Positions 24,001-27,000 of a stretch of DNA of 64,000 bases are shown piece by piece (position 1 is the stretch's first letter; every line of letters starts with the position of its first letter). Made by a program: the position numbers. The stretch comes from Escherichia coli. Lineage in GTDB: Bacteria > Pseudomonadota > Gammaproteobacteria > Enterobacterales > Enterobacteriaceae. The DNA is taken from assembly GCF_022846255.1 (NCBI RefSeq), contig NZ_AP025682.1, one strand, 5' to 3'.

Positions 24001-27000
24001 AATCTATACGGGTTCGGAACTAAATCATGTTGCGGGGCAGAACATATATTGGGCTACCTCGGTGCTGAGAGATGGGGCTGAGTTTTATGATAAATACCCG
24101 CTTGATAAAATTTTATGGAGGCTTAAGCCGGATGTTTATCCGATTGTGGAACTACGCGCGGCGATCTCATCAGTCTTTGATGTCGATGAACAAGAAGCAA
24201 TGATGTTATTGCAGGCTATTATTGGGTTAAAAATGATAAATGTGGATCTATCGTATACCATTCTCGAAACAGGTCTGATAAAAATAATTTCCAATGGTTA
24301 CTGCATAGGCCTGAACGCAAATGGATATTATTAGAAATTCAGTATGGTAATCTCATGACAGCGACGTGCTATCTGACGGGCTTTATCGCGTTTTGGATTT
24401 TGACAGAAATACCGATTTGTTGATTTTATTTGAAATAAAAAAGAAAGGACGAGTAAACCAATTCCATTCTCTCTTTCACAATTTACATATGGTGTGGATT
24501 CTCAACGAATAACCTGTAGGAAATATATCACCCCCTCATATTTGTTGATTGATGAGGAAAATATAACTAATGAAGACAGGAAACGGCGGGGTACGAATTA
24601 TAATATTATTAAAGAACTTGTAGAAGATAGAATGTTCATATTCAATTATGCATTTCATAAAAATCTCATTTATCGACAGAGTATTCTGGGAAAAAACAAA
24701 TCCCACAGCGTACTATCAGGACACTTCTGACTCTTTACTGGAAGTATGGGCAGGATATATATGCTTTACTGCCCGCATACCCGAACTGCGGTGGAGCAGG
24801 CAAGAGCAGAATCCGGCATGAGGTTAAACTCGGGAACGAAAAGAAAAACAGAATGTTACCTAATATACGCTCAGATGTCTATATCCTTAATGAAGGGGAT
24901 ATAGAAAATATCAGAAAACCTCTGGCCAAGTACCATTATAAACTTCATGGAGAAACGATAAAAAAAACGGTGATGCTTCCAATTAGTAGAACATGTATTT
25001 TTCAATGAAGGCCCCGAGAACCTTTTCATGTAGCTCAATTGAGCGTGAAAAGCAGATTGTTTTGCGGGCCAGACGCTTGATGCGGGTTCTCAGCGTCAGA
25101 TTGTTACGCGCAATGCGCTGAGTGAATAGTTTGCCGGTCAGATGCTTTTCCTTAGCGACTTCTCTGGCATAACTTCCCCAGTCGTCGCTCGTTACCATGC
25201 CGATATTAAACGGGGTGAGCAGAGCCAGCAGCTCACGACAGGTTTCATCCGTTCGTGGATCGAACGTATAAGCAAGAACACCACCTGTTTTGGTGTTGTA
25301 GGCATACCAGAGCCAGTGCTGTCGGGCCTTGCTGCCGACAAAGCTCCACTGTTCATCGAGCTCGCAGATGAGCGCGACATCTGCATGAGCGACCGGAGAG
25401 GACGTTATTCTCTTTGGCGCGAGTTTTTTAAAGTGCGGATGACGGTATTTATTCCAATTTTGAGTGTCCTTGCGGTATCGCGGACACCTGCTCCGTTGAA
25501 CGCCATTTCGGTGATTTGCTCTTTGACGCCGGGCTTATGCGTATTTTCATGAACGGAGATCGCCCAATAACCGGTGATCGGGTTCAGATGGATATCTGTA
25601 AAATTGGCCCCGGCTTATATCAGTACACATCTATTGATGATTGCACTCGCTACAGAGTCCTGAGGCTCTACTCTCATCGCACGGCGGCAAACACACTGGA
25701 TTTTATTGATTGTGTTATTGAAGAAATGCCTTTCCCGATACAGCGCTTTCAGACAGACCGGGGAAGAGCATTTTTTGCCGTTAAAGTGCAGGAAAGATTA
25801 AAAGAATACGGCATCAAGTTTCGTCCAAATAAGCCAGCGTCGCCTCATCTTAACGGAAAGGTTGAACGTTCCCAAAAGACAGACAAAGCTGAGTTTTACG
25901 CTACCGTAGATCTTTCTGCTGATGACCTGAAGGAACTGCAGGCAGAATGGCAGCATTACTATAACTGGGAACGTCCTCATAGCGCTCACAACGGTAAAAC
26001 TCCGATGGAACGCTACTTTGAACTTGCTGAGAAAACACCATACTCTGATGCCGTTCATGCAAACTATCAGCCCAATGAAGAGCATATACAGGAACAGAAT
26101 TACAAGCTTGAACTTGGACTGAGAAAATTGAAACGATGCCTATGAATCACACATCTAATTGCTCCTTTTTTCGGTTGACAAAATCCATTTATGAATAAAA
26201 ACATCTCCAGATACAGGTGGTGAAAAAAGATATCCTTGCAAATATTCTATTCCTTTATTTTTCATGGCTTTTTCCTGCTCTATAGTTTCGATACCTTCAG
26301 CAACGACCTTAATATGTAATCGTCTTGCCAACATAGCTATACTATCTACTATTGCTTCGGATATTTTATTTGATTCACACTGTTGGATGAAAGATTTATC
26401 CAGCTTAATAAAATCAACAGAGAAATCCTGTAAATAATGAAATGTAGAATATTCTACTCCAAAATCATCGAGGGCAAAAAGGACATTATGTTTTTGTAAT
26501 TTATCAATTATGGTATGAACTTCATTTGTATCTTGAAGTTTTTTCCTTTCTGATAATTCCAGTATAAGCTTGATTTTTTCCTTACCAAGTTGTTCTAGCA
26601 TTTGAACACATTGCTGCTCAAACTCAGGATACAGAATATTGTCTGAATTAACATTGATACCAATATGAAAATTATCTGGTATCAAATGATTTACATATTT
26701 AAATATGTTTTCAGTCTTTTTCATTAAAAGAGATGTTAAGGGAACAACCAAGTTAGAGGATTCCGCAATAGGAATAAATATTTCTGGAGAAATTATTCCT
26801 ATTTTGGGGTGAAACCATCGTAAAAGTACTTCACATCCGGTAAGACGCCCACTTACAGAACAGAATATGGGCTGAAAGTATGGGGTGAACTCTTGATTTT
26901 CTATCGCTCGGGAAATCAGTTCGGGAGTGATCACAAGGTACTTGTCTATATGATATGAATTCACAATTATAACTCTTCTATATATTTATATGGTTAAACA

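What the first reader, a model, noticed from the sequence alone, without database searches (positions are those of the whole stretch)
24970..26145. Back-to-back truncated IS1-family and IS481/IS3-like transposase fragments
An IS1-like element retains one terminal IR and insB but loses the 5' part of insA exactly where a 5'-truncated rve-domain transposase on the other strand begins (~25548). Abutting IS scars next to the tnsA pseudogene suggest IS-mediated deletion removed tnsB/C/D and reshaped the cargo.
Basis: partly seen in the sequence, partly recalled or inferred. Interest (0 to 1): 0.35.

Follow-up and report, generated by a model that had tools for sequence, protein, structure and literature searches.

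The report
Dead IS1 and IS481 fragments, joined
Two broken insertion sequences lie joined at their cut ends inside a decayed Tn7-like transposon that carries the tib adhesin genes of E. coli; it is an ordinary, non-functional scar marking where the transposon lost its own transposition genes.

Summary

- **IS1 fragment (24969-25537, minus strand):** nt 1-569 of a 765-bp IS1-family element. The insB-side terminal repeat is intact and the insB frame is open. The other terminal repeat and the first 47 insA codons are missing.
- **Orphan stretch (25538-25557):** 20 nt with no identifiable source.
- **IS481 fragment (25558-26153, plus strand):** nt 425-1020 of a 1,020-bp IS481-family element. The right repeat is intact. 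The left repeat and the DNA-binding N-terminus are missing.

Both fragments are dead.

The window lacks tnsC, tnsD and 70% of tnsB. However, 648 nt of tnsB survive as a pseudogene that runs flush up to the IS1 end. The break between the two ISs lies inside both of them, so it is not a classical transposase-made adjacent deletion.

The most economical history is an IS1 insertion into tnsB, followed by one internal deletion.

The whole island (23336-37710) is a Tn6230-type Tn7-like element at the yhiN/yhiM site, with a 5-bp duplication ATTGC. The same IS1/IS481 seam is conserved in seven E. coli genomes and five Salmonella IncHI1B plasmids. There, a second Tn7-like element carrying a CBASS defence system abuts it.

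Verdict: ordinary and already annotated in relatives, so low interest.

The parts
23336..23440 (+). tns-proximal end of the Tn7-like (Tn6230-type) element. It starts TGTTCAAAGATAATAAAGTTG, carries repeated (A/T)TAAAGTTG motifs, is preceded by ATTGC, and overlaps the last codons of yhiN.
   Evidence: Backbone homology to an island-free E. coli stops at 23330.
23491..24334 (+). tnsA pseudogene with two frameshifts, near 23663 and 23806-23810
   Evidence: Pfam Tn7_TnsA-like_N. tblastn against intact TnsA, 90-95% in three pieces. Indels listed.
24321..24968 (+). First 648 nt (30%) of tnsB, a pseudogene with two in-frame stops and two frameshifts. It ends flush at the IS1 terminal repeat.
24969..25537 (-). 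IS1-family fragment, nt 1-569 of 765. Contains the intact insB-side terminal repeat (from 24969), an open insB frame (stop at 24983-24985), the frameshift motif (25423-25429) and InsA residues 48-90 (25408-25536). The insA-side repeat and 47 insA codons are missing.
25538..25557 (.). 20-nt orphan stretch at the joint (TGCGTATTTTCATGAACGGA). No source was found. The next 13 nt (25558-25570) are IS481-like but unusually diverged.
25558..26153 (+). IS481-family fragment, nt 425-1020 of 1,020. It holds the rve catalytic core, and the ORF runs to 26145. The intact right inverted repeat is at 26129-26153. The left repeat and the first 128 codons (HTH domains) are missing.
26155..26964 (-). EAL-domain gene. 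Its stop codon lies 1 nt from the IS481 end. It is the first intact cargo gene, followed by an HTH gene and tibA, tibC, tibB and tibD.
37690..37710 (-). Distal end of the Tn7-like element (...CAACTTTATTGGCTCTACACA), followed by ATTGC, the 5-bp target duplication

Best explanation
The region is a non-functional scar made of two dead insertion-sequence fragments. It lies inside a decayed Tn6230-type Tn7-like transposon that sits at the yhiN/yhiM attachment site and carries the tib adhesin locus.

Shown:
- The island has Tn7-like ends and an ATTGC duplication.
- An IS481-family element lies with its intact right end 1 nt past the EAL gene's stop codon.
- An IS1-family element lies with its intact insB-side end flush against nt 648 of tnsB.
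- Each IS is truncated internally where it meets the other, with 20 orphan nt in between.

Inferred, as the path needing fewest events:
1. A complete IS1 inserted into tnsB.
2. A single transposase-independent deletion then ran from inside IS1 (after nt 569) to inside the IS481 element (before nt 425). It removed the insA end of IS1, the last 70% of tnsB, tnsC, tnsD, any cargo in between, and the 5' 424 bp of the IS481 element. The orphan 20 nt would be junction filler.

Consequences:
- IS1 has lost its insA-side end, which carries the insA promoter in canonical IS1 (textbook knowledge), together with the start and N-terminus of InsA. It cannot make transposase.
- The IS481 fragment has no DNA-binding domain and no left end.
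- The Tn7-like element has no TnsB, TnsC or TnsD. It cannot move by itself, and tnsA and the tnsB stub are decaying.

This joint is older than the derived islands. In those, a second Tn7-like element carrying CBASS, or an IS3-family element, cuts further into the IS1 remnant.
For: - Family assignment and the extent of both fragments.
- tnsB homology runs exactly to the IS1 end.
- Intact relatives show tnsA-tnsB-tnsC(AAA/TniB)-tnsD(TniQ/TnsD).
- Ends and ATTGC duplication. The site is a known Tn6230 hotspot (PMC10121019).
- The arrangement is identical in 7 independent contigs.
- The same IS1|orphan|IS481 joint occurs at 98.5-99% identity in 7 complete E. coli genomes and 5 Salmonella plasmids. 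Those hold only sub-fragments of the window's IS1 piece, starting at window-equivalent 25466 or 25485.
- There is no second copy of either IS in the window.
Against: - No intermediate was found, neither a complete IS1 in an otherwise intact tnsB nor an intact copy of this particular tnsA/tnsB variant. The order of events therefore rests on parsimony.
- The origin of the 20 orphan nt is unexplained.
- TnsD-directed insertion always duplicates the same 5 bp. The left part (tnsA, tnsB stub) and the right part (tib cargo) could therefore come from two tandem elements fused by the deletion.
- The tnsA/tnsB stub is only about 90% identical to the tns genes of the relatives, whereas the 25466-27773 stretch (IS seam, EAL and HTH genes) is 98.6% identical; the tib genes beyond are about 94-95%.
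Confidence: 0.6

Rival explanations
1. IS1 transposase-mediated adjacent deletion. A complete IS1 first sat further right, between tnsD and the EAL gene or inside the IS481 element. Intramolecular IS1 transposition from its insB-side end then deleted leftwards into tnsB. A separate later deletion removed the insA end of IS1 and the 5' part of the IS481 element.
For: The IS1 terminal repeat is exactly flush with tnsB sequence, which is the signature expected of an IS1 adjacent deletion (textbook knowledge of IS1).
Against: It needs at least three events against two. The flush junction is explained equally well by simple insertion. The break between the two ISs still needs a transposase-independent deletion. 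No intermediate was found.
Confidence: 0.15
2. Homologous recombination between two IS1 copies in direct orientation. One was a complete copy in tnsB. The other was an already truncated copy next to the IS481 fragment. Recombination deleted everything between them and left one hybrid IS1 fragment.
For: It yields exactly the observed structure. The IS1/IS481 joint is older than the lineage split. This IS1 variant is common on E. coli plasmids and chromosomes.
Against: It needs two IS1 insertions, a truncation and a recombination. There is no trace of a hybrid: 7 mismatches are spread evenly against the reference copy. There is no second copy in the window.
Confidence: 0.15
3. Reversed polarity. 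The composite element seen in 06-00048 and on the Salmonella plasmids is ancestral. The window type arose later, when another Tn6230-like element with IS1 in its tnsB landed at the yhiN site and recombined with the 72-bp IS1 remnant.
For: The composite is demonstrably mobile (GGTGG duplication on the plasmid). The window's tnsA/tnsB differ by about 10% from those of the composite.
Against: It requires recombination across only 72 bp. It still needs an earlier progenitor with a longer IS1 piece to explain why the internal Tn7-like end is flush with IS1 nt 498. The window type is the simplest such progenitor.
Confidence: 0.08
4. Assembly chimera, or two intact unrelated genes.
For: None beyond the general risk of misassembly at repeats.
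Against: Seven independent assemblies are collinear at 99.8-100% identity. Both fragments match only parts of complete reference elements. Both match only part of their family profiles.
Confidence: 0.01

Closest known systems
IS1 family insertion sequences (the divergent IS1 variant annotated as 'IS1 family transposase' on E. coli F-type and ETEC plasmids, e.g. NZ_CP010174.1 at 81910-82674)
   Same: 98.8% nucleotide identity over nt 1-569. It has the same terminal repeat, insB frame, AAAAAAC frameshift site and InsA C-terminal HTH.
   Different: It lacks the last 196 bp: the insA-side repeat and InsA residues 1-47. It is only 60-80% identical to the common E. coli IS1 copies. The ISfinder name was not determined.
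IS481 family, ISEc18-like elements (complete 1,020-bp copy in E. coli D8, NZ_CP010151.1; ISEc18 at about 91% amino-acid identity)
   Same: 98% nucleotide identity over nt 425-1020. It has the same 25-bp right inverted repeat with the stop codon inside it, and an rve catalytic core.
   Different: It lacks the left repeat and the first 128 codons (HTH domains). The first 13 nt of the fragment are unusually diverged, and 20 orphan nt precede it.
Tn6230-type Tn7-like transposons at the yhiN/yhiM site (including the sil/pco 'CHASRI' element; PMC10121019, PMC8417528)
   Same: Same attachment site, same gene order starting with tnsA next to yhiN, TGT...ACA ends with repeated binding-site-like motifs, and a 5-bp duplication.
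   Different: Here tnsA is frameshifted, tnsB is a 30% stub, and tnsC and tnsD are absent. The cargo is the tib adhesin locus instead of metal resistance or defence genes.
PAI tibA of ETEC H10407 (ROD-13; review PMC7545054 says its insertion site 'remains elusive')
   Same: The same tibD-tibB-tibC-tibA-HTH-EAL module.
   Different: In H10407 the module lies elsewhere, near cobU/sbmC. It is bounded by IS600/IS30 and IS66, the EAL gene is cut by IS66, and there is no IS1/IS481 scar and no Tn7-like end.

Membership tests
IS1 family | InsB/DDE_Tnp_IS1 transposase homology | tested here: met
   Pfam PF03400 E=4.8e-33. NCBIfam NF033558 E=3.2e-42, profile positions 75-199 of 199.
IS1 family | Complete insA with zinc-finger N-terminus, plus HTH and the AAAAAAC frameshift site | tested here: not met
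   Only InsA residues 48-90 remain (HTH, PF12759 E=3.8e-19). The frameshift motif is present, but the first 47 codons and the start are missing.
IS1 family | Two terminal inverted repeats (GGTGATGC...) | tested here: not met
   One repeat is present at 24969. The other is absent, because homology to the 765-bp reference stops at nt 569.
IS1 family | 8-9-bp target-site duplication | tested here: inconclusive
   Only one end survives, so no pair can be compared.
IS481 family | Transposase matching the NCBIfam transpos_IS481 model at or above its cut-off | tested here: inconclusive
   The fragment scores 155.8 bits (cut-off 224), over profile positions 125-284 only. The full-length relative, 98% identical, scores 261.7. 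IS481 beats IS3, 1.7e-45 against 1.5e-16.
IS481 family | N-terminal HTH DNA-binding domain | tested here: not met
   The HTH_28, HTH_32 and HTH_29 domains lie in residues 5-108 of the reference. The fragment starts at codon 129.
IS481 family | Two terminal inverted repeats | tested here: not met
   The right 25-bp repeat is present at 26129-26153, with 1 mismatch to the reference. The left repeat is absent.
Tn7-like transposon, Tn6230 type | Core genes tnsA, tnsB, tnsC and tnsD/tniQ | tested here: not met
   tnsA is frameshifted and tnsB is a 648-nt stub. No tnsC or tnsD lies between 24969 and 37710. Relatives have all four genes.
Tn7-like transposon, Tn6230 type | TGT...ACA ends with repeated TnsB-site-like motifs and a 5-bp target duplication | tested here: met
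   Ends at 23336 and 37710, three or more (A/T)TAAAGTTG-type motifs at each end, and ATTGC on both sides.
Tn7-like transposon, Tn6230 type | Insertion at the yhiN/yhiM attachment site | tested here: met
   The backbone is 99.4% E. coli. The island lies between yhiN and yhiM. The literature describes this site for Tn6230 (PMC10121019).

The most novel reading that the evidence does not exclude
The IS1/IS481 scar is the seam at which a CBASS-carrying Tn6230-like transposon captured the tib adhesin island.

- The incoming element landed inside the dead IS1 fragment of a window-type decayed element.
- It then moved using its own tns-proximal end together with the old distal end.
- This created a composite Tn7-like transposon of about 31-32 kb. 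It now carries an ETEC adhesin/invasin locus into other E. coli yhiN sites (ATTGC duplication) and onto Salmonella IncHI1B plasmids (GGTGG duplication).
- The window preserves the progenitor state.

This would also give the tib pathogenicity island an origin and an insertion site. A 2020 review calls that site elusive.
Probability: 0.5. Interest if true: 0.4.

Novelty: already known. Interest (0 to 1): 0.2.

Why it matters
By itself it matters little. Nested and truncated ISs inside Tn7-like transposons are common (PMC8649781), and the same fragments are already flagged as pseudogenes in RefSeq relatives.

The scar is useful as a marker in three ways.

- **Ordering the variants.** It supports an order for the yhiN/yhiM forms of the tib island: window type first, then the composite with the CBASS element, then the IS3-deleted form. 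The H10407 and WS4437A-1 contexts were not placed in this order.
- **Immobility.** It shows that the tib element in this genome can no longer move on its own.
- **Capture point.** It marks the spot where a second Tn7-like element picked up tib as cargo. That cargo now also occurs on conjugative Salmonella plasmids.

Tried and rejected
**Search for an intact copy of the window's own tnsA/tnsB variant, or an intermediate with a complete IS1 in tnsB. None was found.**
- Megablast of 24450-24968 against 5,426 complete E. coli genomes gave no match.
- An exact 34-mer scan of metagenome contigs gave 0 hits.
- A search of 5.8 billion proteins with a frameshift-corrected TnsA found the best full-length hit at 91%.
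- The cluster members contained only an identical 152-aa fragment, from strain TRECRb50.

**Origin of the orphan and diverged stretch 25538-25570. Unresolved.**
- An exact 26-mer and a degenerate pattern coding for the peptide were scanned against 100,044 species-representative genomes, with 0 hits each.
- A short-word BLAST against the window and all fetched loci gave only chance 9-10-mers.
- The plasmid collection holds the stretch only in the tib-associated copies.
- A mosaic IS481 variant is therefore not supported.

**A recombination breakpoint inside tnsA/tnsB between the window and 06-00048. Rejected.**
- The sliding identity profile shows no 99% block. Even the terminal 21 nt differ.

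**Other checks.**
- Rfam scan of 22000-39000 found nothing.
- Pfam and NCBIfam gave no hit for the 708-aa TnsB of relatives. Its identity as TnsB rests on its position between tnsA and tnsC and on the RefSeq label.

Full report
**What is in the sequence**

The window is E. coli chromosome, 99.2-99.4% identical to many complete genomes across prlC to yhiN. The finding lies in an island between yhiN (22149-23348) and yhiM.

On the minus strand, 24969-25537 matches nt 1-569 of a complete 765-bp IS1-family element on E. coli H8 plasmid B. The match is 98.8% identical and has no gaps.
- Pfam finds DDE_Tnp_IS1 (4.8e-33) and the InsA C-terminal HTH (3.8e-19). NCBIfam finds transpos_IS1 (3.2e-42).
- The terminal repeat GGTGATGCTTCCAATTAG... 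is intact and the insB frame is open.
- The AAAAAAC frameshift site is present.
- Only InsA residues 48-90 remain. The final 196 bp are missing, including the insA-side repeat and the insA start.

On the plus strand, 25558-26153 matches nt 425-1020 of a complete 1,020-bp IS481-family element in E. coli D8 at 98% identity.
- NCBIfam gives transpos_IS481 at 1.7e-45 over profile positions 125-284 of 284, against 1.5e-16 for IS3.
- The 25-bp right inverted repeat, with the stop codon inside it, ends at 26153.
- The left repeat and the first 128 codons, which hold the HTH domains, are missing.

Between the two fragments lie 20 nt (25538-25557) with no detectable source. The next 13 nt are IS481-like but much more diverged than the rest. 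tblastn can stretch an in-frame alignment back to 25546. No other IS481-like copy in the plasmid or species-representative collections has this sequence.

On the right, the ORF ends at 26145 but the element ends at 26153.

**It is real**

Seven independent public assemblies (ENA and Logan) carry the same arrangement. Each aligns as a single collinear match at 99.76-100% identity across 23306-27000 or more. A GenBank genome, strain TRECRb50, encodes an identical TnsA fragment.

**Surroundings**

The island runs from 23336 to 37710.
- Its ends are TGTTCAAAGATAATAAAGTTG... and ...CAACTTTATTGGCTCTACACA.
- Each end carries several (A/T)TAAAGTTG-type repeats.
- ATTGC flanks both sides.
- The yhiN/yhiM site is the documented attachment site of the Tn7-like transposon Tn6230 and of the sil/pco Tn7-like island (PMC10121019, PMC8417528).

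The island contains, in order:
- a tnsA pseudogene (23491-24334, two frameshifts);
- the first 648 nt of tnsB (24321-24968, two stops and two frameshifts);
- the two IS fragments;
- an EAL gene, whose stop codon is 1 nt from the IS481 end;
- an HTH gene, then tibA, tibC, tibB and tibD;
- two tyrosine recombinase genes with an AraC-type gene between them;
- an IS3-family remnant.

tnsB homology to relatives runs exactly up to the IS1 terminal repeat.

**Comparison with related islands**

E. coli 06-00048 has an intact tnsA-tnsB-tnsC-tnsD set at yhiN, followed by cargo that includes a type II CBASS operon.
- That element has its own distal end (...CTACACA). This end is flush with the IS1 fragment at window-equivalent 25466 and is followed by GTCCT, which is IS1 sequence.
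- To the right come the same 72-bp IS1 remnant, orphan stretch, IS481 fragment, EAL gene and tib genes, then a second distal end next to yhiM. The outer flanks are again ATTGC.
- Six further complete genomes (DS26-1 type) have an IS3-family element flush with the IS1 remnant at 25485. It replaces the CBASS cargo and the internal end.
- Five Salmonella IncHI1B plasmids carry the whole composite, flanked by a 5-bp duplication GGTGG. The composite therefore transposes as one unit of about 31 kb.

Strain WS4437A-1 has tib plus a shorter IS481 fragment in a tRNA-Phe island. H10407 has the tib module elsewhere, bounded by other ISs, with no IS1/IS481 scar.

The window's tnsA and tnsB stub are only about 95% and 80-85% identical to those of the composite. 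By contrast, the 25466-27773 stretch (IS seam, EAL and HTH genes) is 98.6% identical, and the tib genes beyond are about 94-95%.

**History and mechanism**

The IS1|orphan|IS481 joint is shared by all these forms. Only the window type keeps IS1 out to its terminal repeat. The joint is therefore old, and the window type is the simplest progenitor of the others.

The break lies inside both ISs, so neither transposase can have made it. A transposase-made adjacent deletion would leave an intact IS end.

The path needing fewest events has two steps:
1. IS1 inserted into tnsB at nt 648. This explains the flush junction.
2. One transposase-independent deletion ran from IS1 nt 569 to IS481 nt 425. It removed the insA end of IS1, the rest of tnsB, tnsC, tnsD and whatever cargo lay between.

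Two rivals cannot be excluded, because no intermediate was found:
- an IS1 adjacent deletion plus a second truncation;
- recombination between two IS1 copies.

Because insertion at this site is site-specific, the ATTGC pair does not prove that the left and right parts began as one element.

Functionally both fragments are dead. The Tn7-like element has no TnsB, TnsC or TnsD, so it cannot move by itself.

**Comparison with known families and novelty**

Both fragments are parts of known IS families. Each fails the tests for an intact member: both lack one end, the IS481 fragment also lacks its N-terminal DNA-binding domain, and the IS1 fragment lacks the start and first 47 codons of insA. RefSeq already annotates the same fragments in relatives as incomplete 'IS1-like element transposase' and 'integrase core domain-containing protein'. 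ISs nested in Tn7-like transposons are common (PMC8649781).

The finding itself is ordinary.

The side result is more interesting. The tib island is Tn6230-type cargo, and a composite version has reached Salmonella plasmids. I found no description of this in the searchable literature, but that search was limited.

**Verdict**

- Observation: confirmed.
- Interpretation: partly supported.
- Novelty: already known.
- Interest: 0.2.

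Noticed in passing
window 23336-37710: The whole tib adhesin island (EAL, HTH, tibA, tibC, tibB, tibD, two tyrosine recombinases, AraC-type gene) is bounded by Tn6230-type Tn7-like ends and a 5-bp ATTGC duplication at the yhiN/yhiM site. A 2020 review says the insertion site of PAI tibA 'remains elusive'.
   Followed up: partly
L005 19987-39322 (E. coli 06-00048); L022/L023 (Salmonella plasmid p08-4425.1, NZ_CP039559.1): A second Tn7-like element, carrying a CBASS system, has its distal end flush with IS1 nt 498. The whole composite, including tib, is flanked by GGTGG on five Salmonella IncHI1B plasmids, so it has transposed as one unit of about 31 kb.
   Followed up: partly
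window 25538-25570: 20 orphan nt, followed by 13 unusually diverged IS481-like nt, lie at the IS1/IS481 joint. The stretch is conserved in all tib-associated copies and absent from every other IS481-like copy searched.
   Followed up: yes
window 36781-37590 (to about 37600): Another IS scar: an IS3-family rve ORF lies directly against the distal Tn7-like end. The equivalent in 06-00048 is annotated as a frameshifted pseudogene.
   Followed up: no
window 33722-33762 and 33942-36145: A perfect 19-nt palindrome (3-nt spacer) lies between tibD and a FimB/FimE-like tyrosine 'DNA invertase' gene. A second recombinase gene and an AraC-type gene follow. This could be a phase-variation switch for tib.
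   Followed up: no
window 38046-39197: The yhiM allele is only about 80% identical to yhiM of an island-free E. coli (SCU-485), whereas the yhiN side is 98-99% identical.
   Followed up: no
window 27817-30960: The TibA-like autotransporter is 1,047 aa. Relatives range from about 984 aa (WS4437A-1) and 989 aa (H10407) up to about 1,240 aa (06-00048). Identity drops to 67-80% in the repeat region 29600-30600, so the passenger-domain repeats vary in length.
   Followed up: no
L021 (ETEC H10407, NC_017633.1, 2295000-2306000): In the prototype strain the tib module is bounded by IS600/IS30 and IS66, with the EAL gene cut by IS66. It lies near cobU/sbmC and has no Tn7-like ends. It looks like a relocated sub-fragment of the yhiN island cargo.
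   Followed up: partly
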